In this document: positions 24,805 through 42,492 of the stretch, piece after piece
How the letters are laid out: each line of letters begins with the position of its first letter
Numbering within the stretch: the stretch's first letter is position 1
Source: a virus
Reading direction: 5' to 3' (one strand)
Length of the DNA stretch: 64,000 nt
IMG/VR virus record: IMGVR_UViG_3300042923_000569
Span: 195,772-259,771 of that record
Notes under the pieces: model-generated
What the model saw: the letters and a program-made list of their open reading frames with translations, nothing else
Told to the model about the DNA's origin: nothing
The model's database searches: none
Translations under genes and position numbers: made by a program

Positions 24805-24836
24805 TTCGTTTACTCCGTTGCGTTTCCGATGTAGTA

Positions 24837-24865
24837 ATAATAGTACTTCTGAATGTTTAACGCAA
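24837..24865 (-). promoter_or_regulatory. early-type promoter, AGTACT cassette (TTGCGT-17-TATTAT)
   Basis: minus strand aaaaagGCTTGCGTtaaacattcagaagtacTATTATtactacatcgg; an A/T-rich UP-like tract lies upstream. Confidence 0.55.
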
Positions 24866-24910
24866 GCCTTTTTTAAATTAAAAGTATAATTTTTTATTTG
24901 CTGTAGGGTA

Positions 24911-24939
24911 TTGACAGGCCACCAGCACTAAGGCATAAT
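24911..24939 (+). promoter_or_regulatory. consensus sigma70-like promoter facing away from the genes (TTGACA-17-CATAAT)
   Basis: gtaTTGACAggccaccagcactaaggCATAATtaacac; would make a ~150-nt plus-strand RNA ending at the 25078-25103 terminator. Confidence 0.5.
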
Positions 24940-24950
24940 TAACACACAGA

Positions 24951-25036
24951 CGGCGAAACGTCTTTGACCCATAGGGTGCGGAGCTATATAAAAAATAAAA
25001 GTACTATCCAATAGATAGATCTATGCACCCTATGGG
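24951..25036. repeat. quasi-palindromic intergenic element (CCCATAGGGTGC arms), copy 1
   Basis: small hairpin gacgGCGAAAcgtc, then arm cccatagggtgc(ggag) 24968-24983, ~41-nt loop, arm gcaccctatggg 25025-25036. Confidence 0.6.
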
Positions 25037-25077
25037 CTTAGTGGCTGTATCTGCCAATGAGATAAGTATAGCAAAAA

Positions 25078-25103
25078 GGGCTGACCGAAGTCAACCCCTT
25101 TTA
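25078..25103. terminator. conserved hairpin terminator of the GGGCTGAC-CGAA-GTCAACCC family
   Basis: perfect stem only in the minus-strand transcript (G-U replaces C.A); U-runs on both sides. Confidence 0.6.
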
Positions 25104-25118
25104 TGTAATTCTTTTTGG

Positions 25119-25289
25119 TTATGCTGGCTGGTGATCGTGACGGCCTTTAGTGTAGGCGTCCTCTAATTCTTTACGTTGCCAGGTATCGAGTGAGTTAAAC
25201 AAAAGGCGGTTATCATTATCAACCGGGCGGTTGTTGGTTCCTAATTCGTACCAACGTACTTTCAACATTTCTAAATCTACTTGAACCAT
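25119..25289 (-). CDS. small protein (56 aa; below the track cutoff); paralog of 25385..25594
   Basis: hand translation MVQVDLEMLKVRWYELGTNNRPVDNDNRLLFNSLDTWQRKELEDAY...; AAGGA RBS; shares LK(I/V)RWY and LF(D/N)SL motifs with its paralog. Confidence 0.45.
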   Translation of the reverse strand: MVQVDLEMLKVRWYELGTNNRPVDNDNRLLFNSLDTWQRKELEDAYTKGRHDHQPA

Positions 25290-25384
25290 TTTGTACTATC
25301 CTTATGGACTCATTGTAACGATTATATAATGTGGGTTATACTAAGTCAACCCTATTGATATTATTTTTTATTATGACTGGAATT

Positions 25385-25594
25385 TTAGAATGTCTTTACT
25401 GTTGGTAGTACTGTTGATTGCATCCACGTTTCTGATTCATCGTTGACGCCGTACAGATAGGCTTTCTTTAGTTCAGCCTGGATGTGGGATGGAAGGGAAT
25501 CGAATAGTTCTTTGTCTTTCCCAATGATTGGATTTCCTGCAACTGCCTGCTTGTACCAACGGATTTTTAAAGCTTCGACTTGACTGTTTTGCAT
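25385..25594 (-). CDS. small protein (69 aa); paralog of 25119..25289
   Basis: ORF track. Confidence 0.5.
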   Translation of the reverse strand: MQNSQVEALKIRWYKQAVAGNPIIGKDKELFDSLPSHIQAELKKAYLYGVNDESETWMQSTVLPTVKTF

Positions 25595-25709
25595 TGTTGG
25601 CCTACACCTTTCTTTGTTTTGTTAAGAACATCTTATCGGATTCCTCTTAATCTGTCAACTACCTTGACGAATTTTATTTTATGGTCTACCGTCAGGCTTA
25701 GTTGAGATA

Positions 25710-25740
25710 TAAAAAAAGAGGTTGACAATTGCCAACCTCT
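25710..25740 (-). terminator. rho-independent terminator
   Basis: minus strand agaggttggcaattgtcaacctct then T7. Confidence 0.6.
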
Positions 25741-25762
25741 GTGAATCTAAACGTGTAATAGG

Positions 25763-26107
25763 TTAAACGCTGTATGTTTCGATCTGATGCTGCTTGATCG
25801 CATTGCGTTGTACTGCATCCAATTTATTAAACGCTGGCGATCCGTATGCAGGTTCGATCTGAGTCCAGTTTTCCAGGTTGATAGGTTGCCCGTATGCGAT
25901 AGCCTGAAGCATACGCATAATGCGACGGTTCTGGATATCACGGATTTCCCGATCCGTTTTATCTTCATCTGACAACAGAGAAGATTCCAGCTTGAAGCGG
26001 CGACCATTGTAATCTTGTCCAGCGATTACATATTCAGTACTGTTATTTTTACCCGGCGACGTCATTACAAACAAGTTCATCTTCATGTAATTATCCTCCA
26101 TAAACAA
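25763..26107 (-). CDS. hypothetical protein (114 aa)
   Basis: ORF track; overlapping ORF 25747..26007 judged spurious. Confidence 0.5.
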   Translation of the reverse strand: MFMEDNYMKMNLFVMTSPGKNNSTEYVIAGQDYNGRRFKLESSLLSDEDKTDREIRDIQNRRIMRMLQAIAYGQPINLENWTQIEPAYGSPAFNKLDAVQRNAIKQHQIETYSV

Positions 26108-26127
26108 TATAATATGATTATAGGCTA

Positions 26128-26156
26128 AGGGCTGACGGTTGTCAACCCTTTTTTTA
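26128..26156. terminator. terminator hairpin, variant of the family (loop GGTT)
   Basis: agggctgacggttgtcaaccct then T7. Confidence 0.5.
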
Positions 26157-26166
26157 TATTTTAAAC

Positions 26167-27087
26167 TTAAAAATCGAGAAGTTCTTCAGGTTCGGCGTTT
26201 TTCAGTGCCAGCCTCTGATCTACCAGGTTCATCGCCATTTGCCAGAGTGAGCTATTCAACACGATGTTTTTATCAATGTTGGTGATAGCACGGCTGGTGC
26301 GTTTGCGTCCTGTTTCTGGATTGAAGCCTGACTGCCCGCCTTGCATCAAATGCTGTTGAACCGTATTAAAAGTACTATACAGGGAATTATCGTATTTGTC
26401 AGTACTATTTAAGCCTTTATGTGATAAAAGTGAACGCGGCTGGAATACGGCGTTTGTGAAATCACCGTTAAGCGGCATACCTTCTTTTAACACATACGCG
26501 GCAATGGCGAATGAATCACGTTCTGAAATGTTCAGATCAATCTGTTTCATTTCTTCTTTATAACGTTCAATATCATCAAAGTCTTTTACTACAGTGTAAA
26601 CACCTTCGATAACATCATCCATAACGCCTTTGCCTTTCGTGCCATTACCTTTGTGATAGATTTTAGTATTGTGTGACATATCACCCATTACTAAACCATT
26701 AGCACAAACAAAGCGAAATTGTCCCGCCATTAACTGGTAAGCACTTGTACCATCATTGGCATTCACCAAAATGATTTCGTTTGCTTCACCTTCAACCTTA
26801 CCAGGCTGACGGAAACGGATCATATGTTTAGTATAATCACGTTTGGTAGTATCGCGTACTTTTGCCTGTATCGCGTACATAGGAAAATAGTTTTCTTGTG
26901 CCAGGCGATCAACAATGTCAATCGTTGCCACTGGTGCAAATCTTGATGACCGGCTTTCGTGCCCTTCAACTGCGAAGATTGAAGGAACCACTTCTAACAG
27001 TTCAGTACGGTTCAATGGACGGTTATCTTTAAGGGCAAAGCCGTTGATTCCTTGATACATTTTGTTCATGGGATAGCCTCTAAGCAT
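26167..27087 (-). CDS. DUF932-like protein (phage/plasmid-like protein family, PF06067-type)
   Basis: remembered family hallmarks SIFAxEGHESRS and DGTSAYQLMAGQFRFVCANGLV; identification from memory only. Confidence 0.5.
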   Translation of the reverse strand: MLRGYPMNKMYQGINGFALKDNRPLNRTELLEVVPSIFAVEGHESRSSRFAPVATIDIVDRLAQENYFPMYAIQAKVRDTTKRDYTKHMIRFRQPGKVEGEANEIILVNANDGTSAYQLMAGQFRFVCANGLVMGDMSHNTKIYHKGNGTKGKGVMDDVIEGVYTVVKDFDDIERYKEEMKQIDLNISERDSFAIAAYVLKEGMPLNGDFTNAVFQPRSLLSHKGLNSTDKYDNSLYSTFNTVQQHLMQGGQSGFNPETGRKRTSRAITNIDKNIVLNSSLWQMAMNLVDQRLALKNAEPEELLDF

Positions 27088-27139
27088 TAAGTTTTTAAAT
27101 TATAATATGCTAAACTTTAATTGTCTAGCACATTTGAGA

Positions 27140-27337
27140 TTATTTTTTATTCAGTTCAATTGATAAAGCATCAAACTCTTTCTGTTGAGTACTGGTAAGA
27201 TCCACCAGCCAACTTACAGAAACCTCTACACGATAGCCATAATCAATCGCATAGATTGTGTTATCCAGAATCAGAGGCTGAATCGAGGGAAACTTTTCAG
27301 CTACCGCTGTATTGATGTTCAGTACTTTGCACCCCAT
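27140..27337 (-). CDS. hypothetical protein (65 aa)
   Basis: ORF track; early-type promoter at 27370-27398 upstream. Confidence 0.45.
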   Translation of the reverse strand: MGCKVLNINTAVAEKFPSIQPLILDNTIYAIDYGYRVEVSVSWLVDLTSTQQKEFDALSIELNKK

Positions 27338-27369
27338 TTCTTCAACCCCTGTTCTGTTTCGATGTAGTA

Positions 27370-27398
27370 ATAATAGTACTTTTATAAGTTAAACGCAA
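27370..27398 (-). promoter_or_regulatory. early-type promoter, AGTACT cassette (TTGCGT-17-TATTAT)
   Basis: near-identical to the 24837-24865 cassette. Confidence 0.5.
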
Positions 27399-27447
27399 GT
27401 ACTTTTTAAATTAAAAGTATAATTATTTGAAATTATTTTATTAGTAC

Positions 27448-27456
27448 TGCTACAAT
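27448..27456 (+). promoter_or_regulatory. extended -10 promoter (TGcTACAAT) reading into element copy 2
   Basis: cTGCTACAATacagcacccc...; transcript would end at the 27513-27540 terminator. Confidence 0.35.
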
Positions 27457-27459
27457 ACA

Positions 27460-27540
27460 GCACCCCAATGGGTTAGTAGCTGTATCTGCCAATGAGATAA
27501 GTATAGCAAAAAGGGCTGACCGAAGTCAACCCCTTTATTA
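27460..27540. repeat. partial palindromic element plus conserved tail and terminator (copy 2)
   Basis: gcaccccaatggg + ttagtagctgtatctgccaatgagataagtatagcaaaa + gggctgaccgaagtcaaccc. Confidence 0.55.
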
Positions 27541-27552
27541 AGAATTTTGGAT

Positions 27553-28131
27553 TTAAATGTAAGTTACTGAATGGTCAGTTTCTTCGAAATCAATATCATT
27601 TGCAATGATTGATTCCTTGACATTTTCGTCAGAAATCAGGTCATAATAACATTTGTCCAGGTCGAAGTAGTACGCATCGCCAGCGGCTTTAATGTACGCG
27701 TCAATCTCTAATTGCAATTTGTCATAAAGAGATTGCTGTTTTGGTGAAAGGTCATTTTGCCAATCACCATCCATTTCCGCTGAAGTAGTATTTGAATGGT
27801 AGTAGCGACTTGAACCACGAACCACTTTACAAGAAATATCGTTGCCCTTGATCAGTTCATGCAACAGGCGATAATGTGACCAGTGTTTTGCTGCACGTAA
27901 AAACTTTTCAATGTCAACGTTATCAGCGGTAAAACTTGCACCATCGCCCTGGCTGCAAAAGCCGGAGTACTGAGATTCTACATCTTCAAAGCCAACGGCT
28001 TTCAGTTTATCATGATGTTCAGCGGTTACGTGTTCGCACCAACCATCATAATCAACGTTAATATCTCTGTGCTTGTCAAGTGCTTTGGCCTGTTGCTGTG
28101 CGTTCAGTTCGTTGAATTTCATGATGTTCAT
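27553..28131 (-). CDS. hypothetical acidic protein (192 aa)
   Basis: ORF track; sits downstream of the DUF932-like gene. Confidence 0.55.
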   Translation of the reverse strand: MNIMKFNELNAQQQAKALDKHRDINVDYDGWCEHVTAEHHDKLKAVGFEDVESQYSGFCSQGDGASFTADNVDIEKFLRAAKHWSHYRLLHELIKGNDISCKVVRGSSRYYHSNTTSAEMDGDWQNDLSPKQQSLYDKLQLEIDAYIKAAGDAYYFDLDKCYYDLISDENVKESIIANDIDFEETDHSVTYI

Positions 28132-28329
28132 CTCAATTAAAATGGTTAGGAACTATTCCTTAACCTTGAATACATTATACATTACTACGTTAAACTTGCA
28201 AGTACTTTCTAGTAGATAATCAGGTAAATTATGAAGATAATTACTATCAGTACTTTTACCATTTTTTCCATCTGCATGGCTACTATATGTGCTAGGCTCT
28301 TAGTACTGTATAGTACTACATAACGTTTC

Positions 28330-28554
28330 TTAGTGGACATACCTCATTGCCCCAAATGTAAGAGGGGTATTAACAACACTAACTTTTGTGATAATAAGGT
28401 TAGGTTCAATCCCGTTAAAGTAGCGAAGTGCGAACACTGTATCGCCCATTGAATAGTCTTCACGTAAACAAATAGGTTGCAGTACTTCAGACATTTGTCT
28501 ATCTTCATCTGAAGGTTCTTCAAAAATAATCTTCTTTAAAAAGTCTTCAATCAT
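28330..28554 (-). CDS. hypothetical protein (74 aa)
   Basis: ORF track. Confidence 0.45.
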   Translation of the reverse strand: MIEDFLKKIIFEEPSDEDRQMSEVLQPICLREDYSMGDTVFALRYFNGIEPNLIITKVSVVNTPLTFGAMRYVH

Positions 28555-28610
28555 TACCGTATTCCTTTATGTTGTGGTATGAAACTAATCTTAGTACAAC
28601 TTATTAGTAC

Positions 28611-28639
28611 TTGCAAGAATTATTTTAGTACAATATATA
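28611..28639 (+). promoter_or_regulatory. AGTACT-cassette promoter on the plus strand (TTGCAA-17-TATATA) reading into element copy 3
   Basis: agtacTTGCAAgaattattttagtacaaTATATAacc. Confidence 0.45.
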
Positions 28640-28664
28640 ACCTATAACTAACAAATATATCTAT

Positions 28665-28745
28665 GCACCCTATGGGTTAGTAGCGGTATCTGCCAATGAG
28701 ATAAGTATAGCAAAAGGGGCTAACCTAAGTCAACCCCTTGTTTAA
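28665..28745. repeat. partial palindromic element plus conserved tail and terminator (copy 3)
   Basis: gcaccctatggg + ttagtagcggtatctgccaatgagataagtatagcaaaa + ggggctaacctaagtcaacccc. Confidence 0.55.
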
Positions 28746-28747
28746 AA

Positions 28748-29089
28748 TTATTTGCAAGTATAGATAACTTTAGCGGGAACATACTTACCAGTACTTTCAT
28801 CCGGGATCGCAGTTTCCATAGTATATTTGTTATGGATGCGGTCTGAAATGATCCGGCCTGTATCGTTTCGGTAATCGTTACCGTCTTTCCAGAATTCCAG
28901 GGCATGACCGTGACTAGTCAAAGTAACTTTTGGTTGAGTAAGTTCAATCGTTGAACCTACAGACATAGGAACATTACTTGCGACTGTGTTCCCATTAACG
29001 ATCAGTGTTTGAGTACTACAGGTTAGTACTTCAGCTTGAACGGACAGTGACAGTACTGATAAGATACCAAAGGCGATTAACTTTTTCAT
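28748..29089 (-). CDS. secreted/periplasmic protein (113 aa with signal peptide)
   Basis: internal start MKKLIAFGILSVLSLSVQA is a Sec signal; RBS present; the longer track ORF (to 29140) starts at an alternative codon. Confidence 0.55.
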   Translation of the reverse strand: MKKLIAFGILSVLSLSVQAEVLTCSTQTLIVNGNTVASNVPMSVGSTIELTQPKVTLTSHGHALEFWKDGNDYRNDTGRIISDRIHNKYTMETAIPDESTGKYVPAKVIYTCK

Positions 29090-29125
29090 TTTATAATCCT
29101 GTTCAGTTGATATAGTTATTATAAT

Positions 29126-29157
29126 AAAAAAGGCTGACAAACGTCAACCTCTTTTTG
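29126..29157. terminator. terminator hairpin of the GGCTGAC...GTCAACC family
   Basis: aggctgacaaacgtcaacct flanked by A- and T-runs. Confidence 0.5.
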
Positions 29158-29158
29158 A

Positions 29159-29683
29159 TTATTCTATAGTACTATTTAAAATTGCGTTCTGTATGTATTC
29201 CATAATTTCATATTGGTCTACATTGTCTTTTGATGTAATTTCTTGCATTGCACGATATGCCGCGAAGACGCCAGCTTTAAATTTAGCTGGTGGCACTGCT
29301 TTGAGAGAATTCACTATACTAGATAAGTAACCTGGATTATTAGCAAAGATTCTCGCTAAGTCCTGGGTTAGAGCTTGTACTTTTGTTCTACTGTTATGTA
29401 CTGGATCTTTCGGAGCTTCTTCTGGTTCAGCGGTAGGAGTTGAACCCGGCATAAGCCCTAATGATTTAAAGTACTTTAACTTTTCTTCAGGCTTCATTTT
29501 TGACGTATCGATACCCTGAGAAGGCATTGTGTTTAATTTGCCTTGCATTCCTGTACCCTGATTACGTTTACCTTTGCTACCTTGTCCGGCGTCGTGACTG
29601 TTTGCACTGCGTTCACTGTTCGACCACTTATCAGAGTGTCCTGAAAGTGTTGCACCGTTTTTACTTCTGAATGTTCCAGGCAT
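29159..29683 (-). CDS. hypothetical protein (~174 aa, Gly/Ser/Lys-rich N-terminal half)
   Basis: ATG at 29683 has a GGGGA RBS; the track start at 29725 has none. Confidence 0.5.
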   Translation of the reverse strand: MPGTFRSKNGATLSGHSDKWSNSERSANSHDAGQGSKGKRNQGTGMQGKLNTMPSQGIDTSKMKPEEKLKYFKSLGLMPGSTPTAEPEEAPKDPVHNSRTKVQALTQDLARIFANNPGYLSSIVNSLKAVPPAKFKAGVFAAYRAMQEITSKDNVDQYEIMEYIQNAILNSTIE

Positions 29684-29740
29684 AATAAAAAATCCCCAAT
29701 ATGTTATAAAGTTTATTATAATCATATTTAGGGATTATGT

Positions 29741-30010
29741 CTACCGCCGTTCAACGAATTTGTTATACTGTTCATGCGTCATTAGGTTTAGTACTTCATC
29801 CCGGATCACAATGCGTTCATTGTGTGATACGTCAAGTACTTTAAACAATCCACAACCTAACTTCCTGGCATGAATAGATCCGCTTTTGTATCCGGTCACA
29901 ACCTTGATCGCTTTGTCAAGTATCTTTGTTTGTACTTTAAAGTGCAATCGAAGTTGTATATCTTGAATCATTATCCGCTTCATAGATACACCTTCTAAGG
30001 GGCTTGTCAA
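29741..30010 (-). CDS. hypothetical protein (89 aa)
   Basis: ORF track. Confidence 0.5.
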   Translation of the reverse strand: MTSPLEGVSMKRIMIQDIQLRLHFKVQTKILDKAIKVVTGYKSGSIHARKLGCGLFKVLDVSHNERIVIRDEVLNLMTHEQYNKFVERR

Positions 30011-30027
30011 GCCCCCTACGATTGATT

Positions 30028-30492
30028 TTAAGCACTTTTCGCAATGGACTGAGCCAGACGGATAGGCACAAGTGAGCGGCGATACATGACGCGTACACGC
30101 TTATCATTAGGGGTAGTTAGTACTTGTTCACCGATGATCCCTGCGATAATCTTACGTACTTCTTTCACTGCAACGTGAGCAACTTCTACAACTTTCTTTT
30201 CAAAGTTGTTTGCATTCAGGAAGGAAATACGATCCTTAATTGCTGGTGCTGGTTTAGCAACATCAACAGCTTTAAGAGCGGCAGCCAGGCTTGCAGTAGT
30301 TTCTGAATGAATCTCTACTGAATGCTCTTTCGCTGGAATTGCTGGTGCAACTTCAACCGCTGCAACTACTTCAGACAGTACAGCCCAACGTTCACCGGCT
30401 GCTGCATCTTTACCAAAATCTTTGACTTTGCCGCCGTTCTCTGAAGCGAAGTTACGAGCCAGGGTGCGTGATGCGAAGAATTCAGTTCTCAT
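30028..30492 (-). CDS. hypothetical protein (154 aa, Ala-rich)
   Basis: ORF track. Confidence 0.55.
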   Translation of the reverse strand: MRTEFFASRTLARNFASENGGKVKDFGKDAAAGERWAVLSEVVAAVEVAPAIPAKEHSVEIHSETTASLAAALKAVDVAKPAPAIKDRISFLNANNFEKKVVEVAHVAVKEVRKIIAGIIGEQVLTTPNDKRVRVMYRRSLVPIRLAQSIAKSA

Positions 30493-30567
30493 TTTTTCAA
30501 TCTCTCTTGTGTGGTTGATGTGATAATTATAAGTTCTTTCGGGTTTTAGTGCAAGTACTTTTTAAAT

Positions 30568-30900: not shown

Positions 30901-30972
30901 TATTATATTCCAGTTCAGTTTATATTATAAAGTACTCTGATTATATAAAGTACTTTGACTAATATCCACTAA

Positions 30973-31419: not shown

Positions 31420-31465
31420 TTTCTTATCCCCTGTACGATTCGCCGTGAACCGTTTCGATGTAGTA

Positions 31466-31494: not shown

Positions 31495-31564
31495 GTACTT
31501 TTTAAATCGAAAGTATAATTTTTGATGTAAAAAAAAAGCCTCGACAATGCGAGGCTTTTGTGGG

Positions 31565-33227: not shown

Positions 33228-33339
33228 TTAAAAGTTCTCTACAAAAGTTGCCCTTTCAATGAGTGCATTCTACCAGAAATATCCTTATATGCAAGCACAA
33301 TTTTAAATTAAAAATATAATGTTTATTTGCTCAACGGCA

Positions 33340-33368
33340 TTGACAGACCACCAGCAATAGGGCATAAT
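33340..33368 (+). promoter_or_regulatory. consensus sigma70-like promoter (TTGACA-17-CATAAT), plus strand
   Basis: caTTGACAgaccaccagcaatagggCATAATtatc; shares the ccaccagc spacer with the 24911 and 39437 copies. Confidence 0.5.
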
Positions 33369-33377
33369 TATCACATA

Positions 33378-33411
33378 GACAGCGAAATGTCTTATCCCAT
33401 AGGGTGCGGAG
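33378..33411. repeat. palindromic element, 5' half only (copy 4)
   Basis: gacaGCGAAAtgtc hairpin (stem covaries with copy 1) + cccatagggtgcggag. Confidence 0.5.
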
Positions 33412-33478
33412 TTGTACCTGTAATATATAAATTTAAAACAAAAATAAGTACTGGCTATTATACCAGTACTATGATATA

Positions 33479-35749: not shown

Positions 35750-35859
35750 TTTTCTTTCTCCGTCTCGTTTCGATATAAGTAAGTATACTCTCTTTTAGTT
35801 TATGTACAAGTACTTTTTAAATTAAAAGTATAATTATATTTTTTAACGGGCACACTTCA

Positions 35860-35937
35860 GCACCCTAATGGGTTTGACCGTTTCGCCGGATTAAGATAAG
35901 TATACTAAAAGGGCTGACTTGCGTCAACCCCTTTTTT
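35860..35937. repeat. palindromic element half in inverted orientation, plus terminator (copy 5)
   Basis: gcaccctaatggg-tttgaccgtttcgccgg is the reverse complement of the copy-1 5' module; followed by gggctgacttgcgtcaaccc T6. Confidence 0.5.
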
Positions 35938-35940
35938 CAA

Positions 35941-36255: not shown

Positions 36256-36323
36256 TTAAAAGTAAGTCAGTAACTACATTATAAAGTACTCGCAGTAATA
36301 AGCAAGTACTTTTGATAATGTTT

Positions 36324-36668: not shown

Positions 36669-36755
36669 AATATCCTCTCAATTAAAAGTAATTCGTTTGC
36701 AGTAACTACATTATAAAGTACTCGCTAGTTAATGCAAGTACTTTTGATAATGTTT

Positions 36756-37148
36756 TTACTTATTCAGATAACGATGAAAGTAATACATAGGGGAATGTTG
36801 GCGATCTTTCGCTGGCGGTACTTTGTACTTACAAAGCTCATAAACCTTTTGCATCATCTGGATATCAGACGCTGGCAATGCATAGTACTCAGTCTTTTTA
36901 ACATCAATCGCGAAGTGTTGAAGTAGTAAAGCCCTGGCTGATTCAGCACTTAAGCCAGTGTGAAGAATAGCGGCTTTTTCTTCAAATGCTTTAAGCATTT
37001 GCTCGTTAGGCAAATTCTTACGTGGTAACGCATTGATAGTTGCCTTATGGAATTTCTTACCATTGGCTAACAGCAATTCATGTACTGACATTTCTTTGCC
37101 ATTGAACAAGAAACAAAAACCGTTTTCATAACCTCTGACTTCTAACAT
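36756..37148 (-). CDS. hypothetical protein (130 aa)
   Basis: ORF track. Confidence 0.5.
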   Translation of the reverse strand: MLEVRGYENGFCFLFNGKEMSVHELLLANGKKFHKATINALPRKNLPNEQMLKAFEEKAAILHTGLSAESARALLLQHFAIDVKKTEYYALPASDIQMMQKVYELCKYKVPPAKDRQHSPMYYFHRYLNK

Positions 37149-37347
37149 AGTAATCCTCTCAATTAAAATTAACTACTCAATAAGTTTATTATATAGTACT
37201 CGCTTGTTATTGCAAGTACTATCGAACTACTTATTATGATTATCATTGTACAGGCGATCACATAATCGCCCATGATAAACCCGCCCATTCTTTAAACGTT
37301 TACCCAAAGGCATAAACCATTTAAGATGGAAACCAGTAAGAAAGATT

Positions 37348-37482
37348 ATATCTTTCATTCGGAAACTTCTACAGTCCAGCCTTTATAGGCGTCGATGTAA
37401 TTGATCCAGTCCTGGTCATTCCAACGGGCAGTAGTTACACCAGGAGCTTTAAACTTGTAATGTCCAGCTTTATATGCTTCCA
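37348..37482 (-). CDS. small protein (~44 aa; below cutoff)
   Basis: MTKMEAYKAGHYKFKAPGVTTARWNDQDWINYIDAYKGWTVEVSE behind the conserved ttaattgagaggtgatac leader; ATGA-coupled to a second ~43-aa ORF ending near 37228. Confidence 0.35.
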
Positions 37483-37574
37483 TCTTAGTCATGTATCACC
37501 TCTCAATTAAAATTAACTACTCAATAAGTTTATTATATAGTACTCGCTTGTTATTGCAAGTACTATCGAACTAC

Positions 37575-37976
37575 TTACAGATCTTTTTTACGCTTCACAT
37601 CATTGCAGTTATCATAGTAAGGAATCGATAACATATTACACAACGTGTACAGGGTACGCACACGAACATTGTCAAAATCAACAAAGTTCCCCTGTACTGC
37701 TTCGCGGAAAATAGTATAACCAGTGTATTCATACTGATTACCATGCCCAGGCATAAACTCATTGCGAACTACATCGATCCAGACCTGTTCACCTTCAGGC
37801 CGGTTATAGTGGTTAGCGTTTAACTCGTTTGCCTTTTCCACATCAACCAGGCAGGCGACATAAGTACTGTGATACGTTACGCCTAATGAATCAGTCCAGC
37901 GATTACCAGTAAGAGTAATGCCCTTGATATCTTCCAGGGTTAAACGTGCGATTGTGATTCTAGTATCTTTGTCCAT
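37575..37976 (-). CDS. hypothetical protein (133 aa)
   Basis: ORF track. Confidence 0.5.
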   Translation of the reverse strand: MDKDTRITIARLTLEDIKGITLTGNRWTDSLGVTYHSTYVACLVDVEKANELNANHYNRPEGEQVWIDVVRNEFMPGHGNQYEYTGYTIFREAVQGNFVDFDNVRVRTLYTLCNMLSIPYYDNCNDVKRKKDL

Positions 37977-38102
37977 CTGGTAAACCTCTCAGTTAAAATT
38001 GTGTATCTCGTTTCGATATAAAAGATTATACGCGATTCTAGTTTATGTGCAAGTACTTTTTAAAATGAATTTATAATTATATTTTTTTAATGGGTATAAC
38101 TC

Positions 38103-38186
38103 TGTACCCTATGGGCTAAGCCATTTCTCTGGCGTATGAGTACTATAACAAAAGAGGCTAACTTTCGTCAACCCCTTTTGATAATT
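38103..38186. repeat. degenerate palindromic element half plus degenerate terminator (copy 6)
   Basis: gtaccctatgggctaagccatttctctggcg ... gaggctaactttcgtcaacccc T4. Confidence 0.4.
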
Positions 38187-38188
38187 AA

Positions 38189-38659
38189 TTATAGATACTT
38201 TTCAGGGATAGAATCTTGCTGAATGATTTGCTTTTCAGCCGCGAGTTCTGTTACAAACTCTTTCAGCTTTTTAAAGTACTTGTCATAACCCGCGATTACT
38301 TTATCAGCATCGCCTTTAATCTTGCGTACTGCAATCTTGCGGCTTTCAGCGTACATATGCGGCTTTTCAGTAATGCAAGTTACCCAGGCACCGTCAAATT
38401 CAACTTCCAGATCCTGGAGTTCAACTTCTGAATCATTAAACTTGATTCCTTTGTGAATGTATGACCGGAAAGTTACTGGATCATTCATTCTGATTTTTGC
38501 GGAAACATCATTAATGTCGCCAATCAAACCGCAGAAGATAGCAATACCGCCACCTAGTGCTAGTGGGCTGATTCGAATACTTCCATTAGGAAAGTACTTC
38601 AGAAATGATTCTGTTACTGCTGCCTGGAGTTCGTTGGCTTTCATGTTCTGTTCTCTCAA
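38189..38659 (-). CDS. hypothetical protein (156 aa)
   Basis: ORF track. Confidence 0.5.
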   Translation of the reverse strand: MREQNMKANELQAAVTESFLKYFPNGSIRISPLALGGGIAIFCGLIGDINDVSAKIRMNDPVTFRSYIHKGIKFNDSEVELQDLEVEFDGAWVTCITEKPHMYAESRKIAVRKIKGDADKVIAGYDKYFKKLKEFVTELAAEKQIIQQDSIPEKYL

Positions 38660-38726
38660 TTAAAAAGTTACTATATAACTAATTATAAAGTACTCGCTAG
38701 TTAATGCAAGTACTTTTGATAATTAA

Positions 38727-39170
38727 TTATTCAACAGTTCCCGCCAGGATCTCTCCTACGCGTACCATTTCATAACGATCAACGATTGATAAAGATAGCT
38801 TAGTATCTTTTTGGCGTACACTATACCAGGTATCACCTTCAAACACATAACGGGTAATGTTTTTGTTTGCGATAAGGAACATCAACCATGATTTAGTAGT
38901 TAGTGGCTCTGTGCCAGTTTCACCACGATCACGCCCATAAGCTACAGTATAGCCAGGAACCTTTTTATTGAAGCTGTGACCTTCTGGACACTCGATAGAT
39001 TTATCCAGTACTGACAGATCACCCAGGGCGATTAGTGCCTTTGCACGTTCTGCATCGTTGTAATGCTCAACTAACATTCTACCAGTGTGACCGATATAGC
39101 CATCATAGTTTACAGATGACCAGGTAACATGTTCGCCGTCTTTGATTGCAATAACTGCTGGAGTACCCAT
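38727..39170 (-). CDS. hypothetical protein (147 aa)
   Basis: ORF track. Confidence 0.5.
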   Translation of the reverse strand: MGTPAVIAIKDGEHVTWSSVNYDGYIGHTGRMLVEHYNDAERAKALIALGDLSVLDKSIECPEGHSFNKKVPGYTVAYGRDRGETGTEPLTTKSWLMFLIANKNITRYVFEGDTWYSVRQKDTKLSLSIVDRYEMVRVGEILAGTVE

Positions 39171-39436
39171 TTTTAAATCCTCTCAATTAAAAGTAACATC
39201 GTCTCGTTTCGATATAGGTAATTATATAGTACTGGTAATCGAAAGCAAGTACTTTTTAAAATAAAAGTATAATTAAGAATCAAAAATAAATTTGCATCTA
39301 AAGAAAAATGATGATACGATGTTTATGCGGCGAAAATGTGAGGTTCGCCGCAAGTCCAACGAATGATAACGCATTGTATTACTTTATAGGATAGCTATGG
39401 GTTTGCTATCCTTTTTTTTTTATTTTCGAAAAGGTA

Positions 39437-39465
39437 TTGACTCCACCAGCCAAATAACCGATAAT
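39437..39465 (+). promoter_or_regulatory. sigma70-like promoter (TTGACT-17-GATAAT) with an upstream T-rich/A-rich UP-like tract, plus strand
   Basis: ttttttttttattttcgaaaaggtaTTGACTccaccagccaaataaccGATAATcac. Confidence 0.5.
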
Positions 39466-39473
39466 CACATCAA

Positions 39474-39623
39474 GACGGCGAAACGTCCTTTCCCATAGGG
39501 TGCGGAGCTATGTCTTTAAAGTACTAATTTTCTTACGGGTATTCCTCTGCACCCTATGGGCTACGCCTTTGTCTCGGCTTGTATGTATTATTGCATTTTT
39601 CGGGGATTGAAGTCAACCCCCGA
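39474..39623. repeat. complete quasi-palindromic element (copy 7) with 3' hairpin terminator
   Basis: gacgGCGAAAcgtc; arm cccatagggtgcggag 39492-39507; ~37-nt loop; arm ctctgcaccctatggg 39545-39560; tail ...tcggggattgaagtcaacccccga ttt. Confidence 0.6.
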
Positions 39624-39634
39624 TTTGTAAAGAT

Positions 39635-39991
39635 TTATTCTTCTTGCGTTACACATTCCAGGCGGTAAGTACTGAAATGTTTACGGAATAAATCGCAAGC
39701 CTGATCGCCGTTTTCCGCTTGCATTATAATCGAACCTTCTCGATTATTTTTAATATCGAAATATGTTACTATCCAGCCACGCGTTTTGATTTCAGATAGT
39801 GGCAAGTGAATTGATCCACCGCTGGTTAATTGACCTTCAGGATCTTTGTTGATTGCTTCCTGGTCGATAGTCAGTGAATAGTTTTCACCATCTACAACGT
39901 GGAACAATTCAACAATCGGATCGATGTTTCCACGTTTGTTTGCGATGCGTTCCAGTGTAGAAAGTACTCCGCGAAGTTCTGATAATCTCAT
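39635..39991 (-). CDS. hypothetical protein (118 aa)
   Basis: ORF track. Confidence 0.5.
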   Translation of the reverse strand: MRLSELRGVLSTLERIANKRGNIDPIVELFHVVDGENYSLTIDQEAINKDPEGQLTSGGSIHLPLSEIKTRGWIVTYFDIKNNREGSIIMQAENGDQACDLFRKHFSTYRLECVTQEE

Positions 39992-40030
39992 TTAAAATTT
40001 ACTCTCGTTTGTTGGTGTGTGGTAATAGTA

Positions 40031-40432
40031 CTATACTACTTCAGAAGTAGCAAGAATATTTTCAAAGTATTCGATTAAATCACAAAGTAACTTGTAGCGA
40101 AGTTTACCAGGTTCAGAATCCATTACGCAAAGGTTACGCTGATTCCAATGTAAGTTAACAGCCCGATTAACATCATTATCAGTTAATTGCATTTCAACCG
40201 GATAACCGCAGTGTAAACCCATTTCCACAAATACAGGCTGCAAGTATTCGTGATCGATCCCGGTAACTTCACTGTTAGGAGTGTGGGCGAATACGTGCCA
40301 GCAGATACCATGCTGTCTGGTTAGGTTGAATGATTCACCGTTGATAGTGGTGTAAGTAACATCACGATCTAAACAGTCTTTCATTGCTGTTAGTACTTTC
40401 AGGACTAAAACTGCCTGCTCTGTACGTTTCAT
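40031..40432 (-). CDS. hypothetical protein (133 aa)
   Basis: first ATG (MKRTEQAV...) at 40432 directly behind the conserved ttttaattgagaggcaataca leader. Confidence 0.5.
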   Translation of the reverse strand: MKRTEQAVLVLKVLTAMKDCLDRDVTYTTINGESFNLTRQHGICWHVFAHTPNSEVTGIDHEYLQPVFVEMGLHCGYPVEMQLTDNDVNRAVNLHWNQRNLCVMDSEPGKLRYKLLCDLIEYFENILATSEVV

Positions 40433-40566
40433 TGTATTGCCTCTCAATTAAAATTTGTTTTGTTTCGATACAGGGAAGTTTACACTACTCGAAAGTTTAT
40501 ACAAGTACTTTTATAAAATATTTTTAAACTCTCTGTAACGCATTCTAAGCGATTTAAAGTACTGCC

Positions 40567-40863
40567 TTACACCTTCAACGATTGAACGTTAAAAGCCCCG
40601 CTAATAGGCTTACACGCAAGATCTATAGCATAGTTCGCTTTCTTGTGGATTATGTACATACACGAATCAAACTGATGATTATACGGCATATCATAAACCC
40701 GGCGTTGTACAAGTTCACCACTAACAACAAAGGCCAGGTAGCCGCTGAAGGTACAACTACGCGGGCCAGCACTGGTCATCGTTTTAGCAATACGGGTACG
40801 GGGATCAATCAGGGACGAAATAGGCTTAAGGTTAAGATTGTTATTCATGGCGTTTAGTCTCAA
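40567..40863 (-). CDS. hypothetical protein (98 aa)
   Basis: ORF track; overlapping plus-strand ORF 40582..40857 judged spurious. Confidence 0.45.
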   Translation of the reverse strand: MRLNAMNNNLNLKPISSLIDPRTRIAKTMTSAGPRSCTFSGYLAFVVSGELVQRRVYDMPYNHQFDSCMYIIHKKANYAIDLACKPISGAFNVQSLKV

Positions 40864-40995
40864 TTAAAAGGTAGAATCTAAAACGCTCTGTAATCAATTC
40901 TAAGCGTTTCTAATAGTACTTTAAGCGAATGTATCACAGTACTATTAGAAATGCTTAGCGGGGCATATAGCCCCGCCATGCTGTATTACTTTGTA

Positions 40996-41640
40996 TTACG
41001 CGGCGGTATCTTCAGAGGCTACGCGGAAAGTTTCGATGAAAGTTTCGCGGTCCATGTTTTTAGAAGCTACCAGATCTTTGAGTTCCTGGCTCATGTTGCC
41101 TTTTTCCGGCATATCGTACTGTTTGCCATCGACTTCAACAGTGACGCGGTTGTATGCGTTGTTGCTGCCGGTAAGTGACGCTTTGATCTTCTTACCTACA
41201 CCAGCAACCGCCGCCTGAGCTACTGCCAGATCCACGCCACCAGCTACCAGAAGTTTGAGCATTTTTTCACGTTCTTCTTTCGCTTTCTCTTCCGCTTCAG
41301 CGTTCAGACGTTCACGTTCTGCCTGAGCTTTAACGCGGGCTTCTTCGCGGGCCGCTTCAGCACGTGCGGCTTCTTCTTTCTGGTACTGTACAGCAGCCGG
41401 GATTGCTTTAGACGCTGCAACCAGAATTTTAGAAATCACGTCAGTGTCAGTTGTTTTATCAACAAAGTACTGAGCCAGGTTAGTCGCAACAGTGTTTACG
41501 TGATCAGCAATGTCTGCTTTGTGCTGAGCCAGTACTTCTTTACTGTGTGTCTTACCTTCTTCCGGTGCCGCCAGGGTAGGAGCCTGAGCGAACAGGATTG
41601 AATTCAGTGTTACTTTAGGAGCTTTAGAAGTGTTAGTCAT
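40996..41640 (-). CDS. hypothetical Ala/Glu/Lys-rich coiled-coil protein (214 aa)
   Basis: ORF track; strong GAGGGT RBS; sigma70-like TTGACT-17-TAAATT promoter near 41700-41735 on the minus strand. Confidence 0.6.
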   Translation of the reverse strand: MTNTSKAPKVTLNSILFAQAPTLAAPEEGKTHSKEVLAQHKADIADHVNTVATNLAQYFVDKTTDTDVISKILVAASKAIPAAVQYQKEEAARAEAAREEARVKAQAERERLNAEAEEKAKEEREKMLKLLVAGGVDLAVAQAAVAGVGKKIKASLTGSNNAYNRVTVEVDGKQYDMPEKGNMSQELKDLVASKNMDRETFIETFRVASEDTAA

Positions 41641-42170
41641 GATATTACCCTCGAATTTTTTAAGTTAATTTGTTTGGCCTGATTGTTTCGGCTTGATTAA
41701 AATTTAAACTACTTGTTTCTTTCAGTCAACTACTATTTTCAACTTTCAAGAAACTTTTTTTCTTTCTATCGTCTGGAGCATTTCGCCCTTTCGATAACCA
41801 ACATCTTACACCATCCTTTCTAACTAGCAAGTACTTTTTAAAAACTTTTTTTCGTTCTATCCAAAAGAGAGTTTCTATCTTCAGGACTTGCTAGCCAGGT
41901 TGTTAAAGAGCGGTGTTCCGTGTTGATGTGGTAATAGTACACTAACCATAAAACTCTGCAAGCACTTTCTTATAAAAACTTATAACTTTTTTCATTCGTC
42001 GTTTTTCTTCCTTTATACGCGTAAAGAAACCCACAACACATAGGAAGCATTTACAGCCCTTTAAAGTACTAATCTAAGTGTTTACCAGGCGTAATCCTCC
42101 AGCCTCTTATAGTGCGTCCTATGCGTTCCTATATAGAAGAAACTATTTTCAATCTTTTTAAAGAAAATGC

Positions 42171-42198
42171 TTGCTTCTCTGATTCAGTACTGTATAAT
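42171..42198 (+). promoter_or_regulatory. AGTACT-cassette promoter on the plus strand (TTGCTT-16-TATAAT)
   Basis: aaaatgcTTGCTTctctgattcagtactgTATAATc reading into element copy 8. Confidence 0.5.
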
Positions 42199-42207
42199 CT
42201 TTTATAT

Positions 42208-42312
42208 CGAAGCGAAATTCGTTATCCCATAGGGTGCGGAGATCCGTCTATTGCTTTTTTACTTTTTCCTGGGTATAGCTCCGCACCCTATGGGAAAGGC
42301 CATTTCGCTGGC
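42208..42312. repeat. complete quasi-palindromic element (copy 8) with perfect dyad symmetry
   Basis: cgaaGCGAAAttcg; 4 nt; cccatagggtgcggag; 36-nt loop; ctccgcaccctatggg; 4 nt; gccaTTTCGCtggc. Confidence 0.65.
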
Positions 42313-42492
42313 TTGTACGTATTATTGCATAATTCGATCAGTACTGTCAACAAAAAAGAAAATTAAAATAATGCTTGATCTGGCTGGTGGCTGTGATATT
42401 ATTACCCCGTCAACACGAAAAGACAGCTATTGATTCTGCCTGGTACTAACCAGACGCGGAAGGGGAACTAATGGAAAAACGCAATGAAAAAG

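What the first reader, a model, noticed from the sequence alone, without database searches (positions are those of the whole stretch)
24835..42320. Family of quasi-palindromic intergenic elements (CCCATAGGGTGCGGAG arms) flanked by GCGAAA-loop hairpins
At least eight intergenic gaps carry all or part of a ~100-bp dyad element. It consists of a small hairpin with a conserved GCGAAA loop, a 4-6 nt spacer, a 12-16-bp arm CCCATAGGGTGC(GGAG), a 35-45-nt loop, the inverse arm, and an inverted small hairpin. Copies lie near 24951, 27460, 28665, 33378, 35860, 38103, 39474 and 42208. The small-hairpin stems covary while the loop is constant (gacg/cgtc, gaca/tgtc, cgaa/ttcg, ccg/cgg), which argues for a conserved structure rather than chance. 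Copy 8 at 42208-42312 is perfectly symmetric. Elements occur whole, as halves, and in either orientation, which is how a mobile or recombining regulatory cassette would be expected to look. Such elements could be RNase III-type processing sites, recombination sites for module shuffling, or the bodies of small RNAs (see next finding).
Basis: seen in the sequence. Interest (0 to 1): 0.7.

Follow-up and report, generated by a model that had tools for sequence, protein, structure and literature searches.

The report
Early promoter–leader RNA cassettes, some face-to-face
The "palindromes" are pairs of head-on early promoters in the terminal repeat of a RaK2-like jumbo phage, each starting its transcript with the same conserved hairpin-plus-box leader, a variant of known phage promoter/terminator cassettes whose leader RNA has not been described.

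Summary
The repeat is not a palindrome. It is a promoter–leader unit of about 85-115 bp: -35 TTGAC(A/T), 17-18 bp, -10, 8 nt, a small hairpin (HP1), 3-6 nt, the near-invariant box CCCAYAGGGTGC, then 8 nt and YRYCY, which can pair with GGGUG (HP2).

The window holds 11 units in 8 gaps. Seven point with the genes; in five, the -35 sits inside the previous gene's terminator hairpin. Four point against the genes. Three face-to-face pairs make the "dyads".

A covariance model finds exactly these 11 in 64 kb and 67 more in CBB, GAP32, BF, 121Q, RaK2 and two metagenomic relatives. HP1 covaries strongly. The promoter lies at a fixed distance in 94% of units.

All units lie in the predicted ~20-kb terminal repeat, which is the early region. 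Unit edges coincide with gene replacements between relatives.

Best reading: PeSL-type terminator/promoter cassettes carrying an undescribed 5' leader RNA module. Antisense copies likely make ~95-155-nt RNAs. The role of the box is unknown. There are no transcript data. RNase III sites and mobile palindromes are not supported.

The parts
24911..24991 (+). Unit 1a, antisense to the genes. -35 TTGACA 24911-16, -10 CATAAT 24934-39, HP1 AGACG-GCGAAA-CGTCT, box 24968-79 followed by GGAG. The complement of Chi lies in the promoter spacer (24919).
   Evidence: 11/12 promoter match; 49.1 bits
25013..25098 (-). Unit 1b, sense. Terminator hairpin GGGGTTGAC-TTCG-GTCAGCCC plus a T-run holds the -35 TTGACT (25094). 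-10 TATACT, HP1 TGGC-AGATACA-GCCA, box 25036-25025, HP2. Forms a face-to-face pair with unit 1a.
27448..27533 (-). Unit 2, sense. The -35 is embedded in the terminator. The box is degenerate (CCATTGGGGTGC).
   Evidence: 24.5 bits, weakest copy
28653..28737 (-). Unit 3, sense. The -35 is embedded in the terminator. HP1 TGGC-AGATACC-GCTA contains a G.U pair. Box 28676-28665.
33340..33419 (+). Unit 4, the lone antisense unit. TTGACA-17-CATAAT, HP1 AGACA-GCGAAA-TGTCT, box 33396-407, HP2. It is followed by the hairpin AGTACTGG..CCAGTACT (33447-33470), giving a predicted RNA of about 95 nt. Its position is syntenic in all six phages.
   Evidence: (66.7 bits)
35848..35931 (-). Unit 5, sense. The -35 TTGACG is embedded in the terminator. 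HP1 CCG-GCGAAA-CGG, box CCATTAGGGTGC, HP2 GGGTGC..GTGCCC.
38092..38175 (-). Unit 6, sense. The -35 is embedded in the terminator. HP1 GCCA-GAGAAA-TGGC, box CCCATAGGGTAC, HP2 GGGTA..TACCC.
   Evidence: (63 bits)
39437..39515 (+). Unit 7a, antisense. TTGACT-17-GATAAT with the complement of Chi in the spacer. HP1 GACG-GCGAAA-CGTC, box 39492-503.
39537..39622 (-). Unit 7b, sense. The hairpin CGGGGG-TTGACTTCAAT-CCCCG holds the -35 but has no T-run on this strand. HP1 GCC-GAGACAAA-GGC, box 39560-39549, HP2. Faces unit 7a.
42170..42249 (+). Unit 8a. TTGCTT-17-TATAAT, HP1 (T)CGAA-GCGAAA-TTCG(A), box 42226-37. It fires toward the predicted genome terminus and the + strand genes beyond it.
42271..42350 (-). 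Unit 8b. TTGACA-18-AATAAT, HP1 GCCA-GCGAAA-TGGC, box 42294-42283, HP2. It is the first promoter of the leftward early gene array and faces unit 8a.
   Evidence: (11/12)
24837..24865 (-). Example of the second, box-less promoter class (P2) that lies between a unit and the gene start. Its form is UP-like AAAAAGTAC, TTGCnn, 16-17 bp, TAnnAT, then the leader ATCGAAAC. Other copies: 27370-27398, 28588-28616, 33267-33294, 35782-35809, 38025-38052, 39221-39248.
   Evidence: The same leader follows terminator/promoter composites in Aeromonas phage 65 and Pectobacterium phage POP15.

Best explanation
Each arm plus small hairpin is the start of a transcript, not half of a palindrome. The unit is a host-type (sigma70) early promoter followed by a conserved leader of about 45 nt. 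HP1 begins 8 nt after the -10, which puts it 1-2 nt from the predicted RNA 5' end. After 3-6 nt comes the near-invariant box (R)CCCAYAGGGUGC. Its GGGUG pairs with YRYCY 8 nt downstream to form HP2. The box can instead fold as a mini-hairpin, RCCC-AYA-GGGU.

Units that point with the genes overlap the terminator hairpin of the preceding gene, with the -35 inside the stem. Transcription therefore stops and restarts at the same spot. This is the PeSL type of terminator/promoter cassette, here carrying an extra leader.

Units that point against the genes run into the next bidirectional terminator and should give short RNAs: about 95 nt for the lone unit and about 155 nt for dyad partners. The three dyads are face-to-face promoter pairs with a fixed 69-bp box-to-box span.

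Inferred mechanism: host RNA polymerase fires at all units right after DNA entry, since the units fill the terminal repeat, which is the early region. HP1 shields the 5' end of the RNA. The box/HP2 is a common recognition site for a still unknown phage or host factor that acts on these immediate-early RNAs. Face-to-face pairs limit each other by collision and by antisense pairing. Because the ~115-bp unit is repeated about 11 times per repeat region, it also serves as a homology patch for recombination that swaps gene cassettes.

Shown: anatomy, conservation, HP1 covariation, promoter linkage and breakpoint association. Inferred: actual start sites, RNA ends, and the role of the box.
For: Promoter linkage: all 11 window units have a -35/-10 pair directly upstream. 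An independent consensus scan scores 10 of them 10-11 of 12; the eleventh (42226+, TTGCTT/TATAAT) is not among the listed sites. Across 78 units, 94% score at least 9 of 12 against 4% of random sites, and the -10 end lies 26-28 nt from the box in 63 of 78.

Family: the model R1 finds exactly 11 units in the window and 67 in relatives. True units occur only in RaK2-like ~350-kb genomes, and in CBB only inside the terminal repeat copies.

HP1: there are 38 different stems. All 4 pairs change on both sides, with 112 compensatory cells against 44.6+-4.4 in shuffles (0 of 500). One orthologous pair shows two compensatory swaps, CGAA/TTCG versus CAGA/TCTG.

HP2: 97% of cells are paired, the 3' side varies almost only by transitions, and slid controls reach at most 73%.

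PeSL link: the terminator-with-embedded--35 composite also occurs in T4-like and rV5-like phages. It fits the published description of PeSLs (PMC2839356, PMC4122927).

Antisense units: there are 3-4 per phage at syntenic sites. The lone one is followed by a terminator hairpin in all six phages. The folds are stable, with z = -5.7 and -2.8.

Recombination: gene replacements flank units. A GAP32_045-like gene sits at different unit-flanked sites in the window and in GAP32. Homology starts and stops at unit edges.

Terminal repeat: the window boundaries are about 23390 and about 43287 by homology to CBB and BF.
Against: There are no transcript data for any RaK2-like phage in the searched literature, so start sites, RNA ends and expression timing are predictions. 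The box never varies enough to show covariation, so it could be read as double-stranded DNA. HP2 has one-sided variation only. The G.U versus A.C count in HP1 on the model-fitted alignment is not decisive (16 versus 17). Minimum-energy folds pick HP2 in only about 30% of units and the mini-hairpin in about 40%. A second promoter lies between every sense unit and its gene, so the leader is not needed simply to express that gene. No candidate binding protein was found.
Confidence: 0.6

Rival explanations
1. The leader is an elongation-control signal of the nut, put or ops kind. HP1, with its purine-rich loop, together with the box would load a factor onto RNA polymerase, or modify it directly, so that early transcripts read through the many terminators. 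HP1 could act as a pause hairpin, with the pause at the UG of the box (about +29). The 12-nt box would then be the non-template strand of the paused bubble.
For: The signal is promoter-proximal and at a fixed distance. HP1 loops (GCGAAA, GAGAAA, AGAACAA, GAGACAAA) recall the GNRA-like boxB loops, which I cite from memory. Terminators follow most genes. The box is 12 nt long and ends in TG(C), like ops, again from memory.
Against: Eleven reload sites sit in 20 kb, most of them directly on a terminator. That argues for stop-and-restart rather than processive read-through. The box has no similarity to boxA or ops. Rfam gave no match. No arginine-rich N-like protein is present among 37 early ORFs. 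Antisense units end at the very next terminator in all six phages, which would be odd for an antiterminated transcript.
Confidence: 0.13
2. The functional products are small RNAs. The module HP1-box-HP2 would be the body of an abundant RNA family that acts as a protein decoy or sponge. Alternatively, RNAs reading through dyads carry an anti-box (GCACCCURUGGG) that pairs in trans with the box on all other leaders, giving RNase III-sensitive duplexes that shut off early RNAs.
For: Antisense units plus a terminator make discrete predicted RNAs of 95-155 nt. These are conserved in six phages although only the module is conserved in sequence. In GAP32 a unit is followed by about 370 nt without an ORF and then a strong terminator. 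PA5oct has abundant non-coding RNAs in its terminal repeat (PMC7318152).
Against: Sense units have no terminator before the gene. No box/anti-box covariation was seen across phages; BF single units use CCTATAGGGTGC while its dyads use other variants. Arm complementarity in dyads varies from about 12 to 24 bp.
Confidence: 0.15
3. The box is a double-stranded DNA operator at about +20 to +31 for a phage regulator. The regulator would either be a repressor that shuts off immediate-early promoters, or an activator in the manner of the T4 MotA box for a promoter whose -10-like TATNAT lies 11 nt downstream.
For: The box is invariant with a variable centre, at a fixed distance from the promoter. In 121Q, RaK2 and BF a TATAAT-like hexamer follows 11 nt after the box.
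Against: The -10-like hexamer is not conserved in the window's own units. The five positions after the loop vary almost only by transitions that keep pairing with GGGUG, which fits RNA rather than a protein-DNA contact. HP1 is structurally constrained and sits between the promoter and the box.
Confidence: 0.1
4. This is the first reader's view: a mobile palindromic element (MITE-like, or a site-specific recombination site), or an RNase III processing hairpin in polycistronic early RNA.
For: The locus has inverted-repeat architecture. Copies occur in both orientations, and gene content changes at the copies.
Against: Single units outnumber dyads. Every copy carries a promoter at a fixed distance. 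Dyads are positionally conserved across genera rather than scattered. The long stem exists at only 3 of 8 loci.
Confidence: 0.02

Closest known systems
PeSL (promoter-early stem-loop) cassettes of T4-like phages (Arbiol et al. 2010, PMC2839356; Comeau et al. 2014, PMC4122927)
   Same: A G/C-run stem-loop terminator overlaps a strong sigma70-like early promoter. The cassettes are repeated in intergenic gaps of regions rich in small orphan genes, and they coincide with insertions, deletions and replacements between relatives. The same terminator/promoter composite, GGGGTTGAC-loop-GTCAGCCCC-T-run-TATNNT, is found in T4-like and rV5-like phages.
   Different: A PeSL ends directly in the Shine-Dalgarno sequence and ATG. 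Here about 45 nt of conserved leader (HP1, box, HP2) follows the promoter, and a second promoter precedes the gene. One third of the copies point against the genes. Three fixed face-to-face pairs exist. The units are confined to the long terminal repeat of a jumbo phage. Mini-circle formation was not tested.
Lambda nut sites (boxA plus boxB) and HK022 put RNAs
   Same: These are promoter-proximal RNA signals made of a small hairpin with a purine-rich loop plus a conserved box, in early operons punctuated by terminators.
   Different: The order is reversed (hairpin first). There is no sequence match to boxA. There are about 11 copies per region rather than 2. The distance from the RNA 5' end is strictly fixed. 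No N-like protein was found. Read-through was not tested.
5'-terminal stabiliser stem-loops of E. coli mRNAs (for example the ompA 5' UTR; cited from general knowledge)
   Same: The hairpin starts within 1-3 nt of the predicted 5' end. It is conserved as a structure and not as a stem sequence.
   Different: The loop sequence is also conserved, and the hairpin is always followed by the invariant box, so it is more than a generic cap.
Face-to-face promoters of coliphage 186 (pR/pL) and P2 (Pe/Pc) (cited from general knowledge)
   Same: Two strong promoters fire toward each other over a short overlap, which is expected to give transcriptional interference and complementary RNAs.
   Different: This is a lytic jumbo phage with three such pairs per terminal repeat, and both partners carry the same leader. 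No switch function is known.
RNase III processing hairpins between T7 early genes (cited from general knowledge)
   Same: Intergenic hairpins in an early phage operon.
   Different: Only the 3 dyads can form a long stem. Stem length is not conserved. The conserved feature is the half-unit with its own promoter.

Membership tests
PeSL cassette | Strong sigma70-like early promoter | tested here: met
   73 of 78 units score at least 9 of 12 with a 16-18 bp spacer. Ten of the 11 window units are listed at 10-11 of 12 by an independent scan. Promoter activity itself was not measured.
PeSL cassette | Stem-loop (poly-G...poly-C) terminator adjacent to or overlapping the promoter | tested here: met
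   Five of the 7 sense units have GGGGTTGAC-loop-GTCAGCCCC plus a T-run, with the -35 inside the stem. One has a hairpin without a T-run and one has none. The antisense units lack it.
PeSL cassette | Element ends in the Shine-Dalgarno sequence and start codon of the downstream gene | tested here: not met
   The box lies 110-540 nt from the next coding sequence in CBB and GAP32. In the window a second promoter intervenes. The second promoter itself, with its ATCGAAAC leader, SD and ATG, does fit this feature.
PeSL cassette | Located in plastic regions of small orphan genes and associated with indels or replacements | tested here: met
   The synteny table shows orphan genes and replacements next to units, and a gene that moved between unit-flanked sites. 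Homology breaks at unit edges.
PeSL cassette | Recombination between copies yields mini-circles | not testable with these tools
   This needs inverse PCR on infected cells.
Lambda-type nut site | boxA consensus (CGCTCTTA-like) | tested here: not met
   No such sequence is present in the 78 aligned units. There was no Rfam match.
Lambda-type nut site | boxB hairpin with a GNRA-like loop bound by an arginine-rich N protein | tested here: inconclusive
   HP1 loops are purine-rich, 6-8 nt long and conserved. No arginine-rich small protein was found among 37 early ORFs. Binding was not tested.
Lambda-type nut site | Confers read-through of downstream terminators | not testable with these tools
   This needs in vitro or in vivo termination assays.
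RNase III processing site | Double-stranded stem of about two helical turns present at each site | tested here: not met
   A long stem is possible at only 3 of 8 loci, with arms of 12-24 bp.
MITE / transposable palindrome | Terminal inverted repeats as the element ends, with scattered non-syntenic insertion sites | tested here: not met
   The inverted arms are internal and flanked by promoters. Dyads sit at syntenic positions in CBB, GAP32, BF and the window. Target-site duplications were not examined.
Any Rfam family | Score at or above the family's gathering threshold | tested here: not met
   There were 0 matches over the whole window. Only chance-level hits appeared at E up to 5 in 39.1-42.7 kb. 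No tRNA or tmRNA was found.
Face-to-face interfering promoter pair (186 pR/pL type) | Two promoters firing toward each other with overlapping transcripts | tested here: met
   There are three pairs in the window. The box-to-box span is 69 bp in 13 of 15 pairs across phages. Interference itself was not tested.

The most novel reading that the evidence does not exclude
The HP1-box-HP2 module may be a new phage RNA signal, or a non-template-strand DNA signal, that is obligatorily 5'-terminal. Every immediate-early transcript of RaK2-like jumbo phages would use it to recruit one dedicated factor. That factor could mark the RNAs as self, control elongation or pausing, or time their destruction. The stand-alone ~95-155-nt antisense RNAs that carry the same module, or its complement, would act as trans regulators or decoys of that factor. 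Together these would form a phage-wide leader regulon in the terminal repeat.
Probability: 0.25. Interest if true: 0.8.

Novelty: new variant of a known kind. Interest (0 to 1): 0.55.

Why it matters
The early, terminal-repeat region of RaK2-like jumbo phages is a block of about 20 kb of unknown small genes, and nothing has been published on its control beyond predicted promoters. This work shows that the region is built from repeated terminator/promoter/leader units, which gives three things. First, it gives a concrete map of predicted start sites, small RNAs and insulated gene cassettes that can be tested in one 5'-end-mapping experiment. Second, it gives a conserved RNA motif with strong covariation and an invariant 12-nt box that can be used as bait to find the factor controlling immediate-early expression. 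Third, it gives a mechanism, recombination between units, for the rapid turnover of host-takeover genes, and it extends the PeSL concept from T4-like phages to jumbo phages. The units are also compact, strong, insulated expression parts for phage engineering.

Tried and rejected
- Rfam at gathering thresholds over the whole window, and at permissive E-values on 39.1-42.7 kb, gave nothing relevant.
- ARAGORN found no tRNA or tmRNA.
- Megablast of one element against phage records gave no match, so the phage itself is not in the collection.
- An IMG/VR scan for CCCAYAGGGTGCGGAG returned 45 loci. Outside RaK2-like genomes, every hit lacked the promoter and hairpin and lay in unrelated sequence, consistent with chance or coding matches.
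- A MotA-like middle promoter (box, 11 nt, TATNAT) was considered. The hexamer is not conserved in the window's own units.
- A pseudoknot between the HP1 loop (AGA) and the downstream UCU shows no covariation with the GCGAAA loops.
- From memory, the box lacks the GGA that a CsrA site needs, GGAG is present in only about half of the units (arguing against a RegB-type target), and the box does not match type I-E or I-F CRISPR repeats. All three were rejected, with no tool test beyond the alignments.
- An N-like arginine-rich peptide was sought among 37 early ORFs and none was found.
- Pfam and PHROGs on 10 conserved early ORFs gave only unknown-function families, plus one ParE-like domain.
- The strand test by G.U versus A.C counts in HP1 on the model-fitted alignment was uninformative (16 versus 17).
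- Literature searches for the box sequence and for transcriptomes of RaK2-like phages found nothing.

Full report
WHAT THE WINDOW IS. The region 24-43 kb carries small genes on the - strand. It has no near-identical record among 50,697 phage genomes. At about 70% nucleotide identity it aligns with the left-end region of the RaK2-like jumbo phages: Pectobacterium phage CBB, Cronobacter phage GAP32, Serratia phage BF, the Erwinia pEa_SNUABM phages and Yersinia fHe-Yen9-04. A 355-kb IMG/VR contig (locus L021) is a closer relative, at 86-91% in non-coding DNA. In CBB this region is the 22.5-kb direct terminal repeat (PMC5259590). Position 1 of the CBB and BF records aligns to window ~43287, and the inner boundary of the CBB repeat aligns to ~23390. 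The finding therefore lies inside a predicted terminal repeat of about 20 kb. In the distant relative PA5oct, the terminal repeat is the highly transcribed early region (PMC7318152).

CHECK OF THE OBSERVATION. CCCATAGGGTGC occurs 10 times with at most 2 mismatches against 1.46 expected, and an eleventh copy has 3 mismatches. Three gaps hold an inverted pair (24968+/25036-, 39492+/39560-, 42226+/42294-) and five hold a single copy. The small hairpins are there, with covarying stems.

WHAT THE REPEAT UNIT REALLY IS. Reading 95 nt upstream of every copy shows the same ordered parts:
- -35 TTGAC(A/T/G), or TTGCTT in one copy.
- A spacer of 17-18 bp.
- A -10 hexamer (TATACT, CATAAT, TATAAT, AATAAT, TATAGT or GATAAT).
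- Eight nt (nine in one copy).
- The small hairpin HP1.
- Three to six nt, usually YUAR.
- The box.
A blind consensus scan lists 10 of the 11 unit promoters at 10-11 of 12; the copy with a TTGCTT -35 (42226+) is not among its listed sites. With a start about 7 nt after the -10, HP1 begins 1-2 nt from the RNA 5' end and the box spans about +20 to +31.

After the box come 8 nt (consensus C-R-G-A-R-N-U-N) and then YRYCY. YRYCY can pair with the GGGUG of the box to form HP2. In five of the seven units that point with the genes, the -35 lies in the 5' half of the stem of the previous gene's intrinsic terminator, GGGGTTGAC-loop-GTCAGCCCC followed by a T-run. A sixth has a hairpin without a T-run.

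FAMILY AND STATISTICS. The same unit occurs 7-13 times in the homologous region of CBB, GAP32, BF, 121Q and RaK2. A covariance model built from 64 units finds exactly the 11 window units in 64 kb, and 78 in all across eight sources.
- Promoter: across the 78 units, 94% have a promoter scoring at least 9 of 12 against 4% of random positions. The -10 end is 26-28 nt from the box in 63 of 78.
- HP1: there are 38 different stem sequences among the 64 units of the first alignment. All four modelled pairs change on both sides, with 112 compensatory cells against 44.6 in shuffles (0 of 500). Between the window and its close relative, one orthologous HP1 differs by two compensatory swaps.
- HP1 loops: these are conserved in classes (GCGAAA, GAGAAA, AGAACAA(A), AGATAA(A)).
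- HP2: 97% of cells are paired. Its 3' side varies almost only by transitions (83 transitions against 12 transversions over five columns), unlike the neighbouring columns. Slid controls reach at most 73%. Because the 5' side is invariant, this is one-sided evidence.
- Mini-hairpin: RNAalifold prefers the competing mini-hairpin RCCC-AYA-GGGU. Single-sequence folds split between the two structures.
- Distribution: an exact 16-mer scan of 2.9 million viral contigs finds true units only in RaK2-like genomes. In CBB's full genome they lie only in the two terminal repeat copies.
- Known families: Rfam has no matching family.

ORIENTATION AND THE DYADS. About one third of units (22 of 67 in the six phage regions where gene direction is known) point against the genes, 3-4 per phage. 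The dyads are face-to-face pairs. The outer box-to-box span is 69 bp in 13 of 15 pairs. It is 87 bp in two pairs that carry an extra central hairpin. The pairs, and one lone antisense unit upstream of the membrane-protein/Band-7 module, sit at syntenic places in CBB, GAP32, BF and the window.

In all six phages the lone antisense unit is followed about 30 nt after HP2 by a hairpin. Its sequence differs between genera but it is always present. In five of the six phages it is flanked by an A-run upstream and T-rich sequence downstream, which makes it a bidirectional terminator; the window copy has the A-run but a weak downstream T-tract. This predicts an RNA of about 95 nt. Antisense partners in dyads run through the partner's leader and reach the bidirectional terminator. 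This predicts highly structured RNAs of about 155 nt (z = -5.7). Unit 42226+ is different: it fires toward the predicted terminus about 1 kb away, and in the right-end repeat copy into the + strand genes beyond it.

RELATION TO PeSLs. The terminator/promoter half alone matches many other large myoviruses. In T4-like Aeromonas phage 65 and rV5-like Pectobacterium phage POP15, the same composite is followed directly by the leader ATCGAAAC, then SD and ATG. That is the published PeSL layout, in which stem-loops often lie between or over the promoter hexamers (PMC2839356; PMC4122927).

In the window, that ATCGAAAC leader belongs to a second, box-less promoter class (P2) placed between each sense unit and its gene. 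The RaK2-like unit is therefore a PeSL-type cassette in which the promoter is followed by an added module (HP1, box, HP2) and then a second promoter.

As with PeSLs, units mark plasticity. Orphan genes and replacements lie next to single units. A homologue of GAP32_045 lies at a different unit-flanked position in the window. Alignments between relatives lose homology exactly at unit edges, from the AATCTTTACAAA motif upstream of the terminator to just past HP2.

HOW IT MOST LIKELY WORKS.
- Shown: the anatomy, the fixed geometry, structural selection on HP1, conservation across genera, restriction to the terminal repeat, and the association with breakpoints.
- Inferred: host sigma70 polymerase starts at each unit early in infection. 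HP1 forms at the extreme 5' end and protects the RNA. The invariant box/HP2 is a shared recognition site for an unidentified factor. Sense units give stop-and-restart transcription at each cassette border. Antisense units give short RNAs and oppose their partners. The repeats drive cassette shuffling.

I put about 0.85 on the architecture (promoter plus transcribed leader, dyad as a face-to-face pair, PeSL-type cassette). I put about 0.6 on the whole statement, including RNA-level action of the leader. No specific role for the box gets more than about 0.3. The strictly 5'-terminal position, and the fact that no copy lacks a promoter, favour a function tied to the RNA 5' end or to promoter-proximal events. 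They argue against a nut-like site that can sit anywhere in a leader.

RIVALS. They are set out with their tests in the rival section. None is excluded except the last.

NOVELTY. The cassette principle is known. Three things are not described in the searched literature or in Rfam: the conserved leader module, its obligatory 5' position, and the conserved face-to-face and stand-alone antisense copies in a jumbo-phage terminal repeat. I rate it a new variant of a known kind, with moderate interest.

Noticed in passing
window - strand: 23784, 24376, 24919, 27202, 32352, 33348, 36347, 36601, 39443, 41237 (also 8382); + strand: 11326, 29286, 42383: The E. coli Chi sequence GCTGGTGG is enriched by roughly 30- to 100-fold in the predicted terminal repeat, and it lies almost only on the coding strand: 10 versus 2, where about 0.1-0.3 is expected. 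The same bias holds in CBB (7/2), GAP32 (7/2), BF (6/0), 121Q (9/1) and RaK2 (9/1). The orientation fits recognition by RecBCD entering from either physical end. The first correctly oriented Chi lies about 400 bp from one predicted terminus and about 900 bp from the other. Three Chi sites sit in the -35/-10 spacer of antisense units.
   Followed up: partly
whole window; pairs at, for example, 27375/27398, 35211/35232, 36717/36737, 39228/39248: AGTACT occurs 258 times in 64 kb against about 22 expected. Other palindromic hexamers of the same composition occur 10-27 times. Many copies come in pairs 20-23 bp apart that bracket the -35 of the box-less P2 promoters (AAAAAGTACTTGCnn...AGTACTnTATAAT). 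This could be a phage-specific promoter or regulator motif.
   Followed up: partly
window 43305-43384: Four tandem 20-bp repeats, each with an AGTACT core, lie just outside the predicted terminal repeat boundary at ~43287, where the CBB and BF records start. This is a candidate terminus, packaging or replication signal.
   Followed up: no
window 42392-42660: This non-coding stretch between dyad 8 and the predicted terminus is conserved at 77-81% with CBB 651-910, GAP32 3432-3691 and BF 639-896. It contains a 48-bp direct repeat (42484-42579) with CTAAACGTCTAGA motifs.
   Followed up: no
window 39291-39430, + strand: A small transcription unit lies opposite to the genes. It has TTGCAT-17-TACGAT, a 5' hairpin GCGGCGAA...TTCGCCGC, and a strong terminator GGATAGC...GCTATCC followed by T10. 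A 28-codon ORF is possible. It is absent at this place in the close relative L021.
   Followed up: partly
L003 (GAP32) 8828-9228: A sense unit is followed by about 370 nt without an ORF of more than 31 codons on that strand, and then by a strong annotated terminator. It looks like a non-coding RNA gene of 300-400 nt. No homologue was found in the window or in the other fetched loci.
   Followed up: partly
window 29741-30010, - strand: This early gene, conserved in all five relatives, carries a ParE-like toxin domain (PF24732, E = 1e-10).
   Followed up: no
L004 (BF) 996-1082 and L009 8050-8136: Two face-to-face pairs have an 87-bp span instead of 69 bp. The extra 18 bp form a central hairpin (for example GCGAAATGA-TAA-TCATTCGC), which looks like an inserted bidirectional stop between the two promoters.
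   Followed up: no
window 39623-39634 and the homologous sites in GAP32, CBB and BF: The motif AATCTTTACAAA lies just upstream of the terminator/-35 hairpin. It is invariant in five aligned units and marks the left edge of unit homology. It recurs as a tandem in RaK2 and 121Q (tttacaaatctttacaaa).
   Followed up: no
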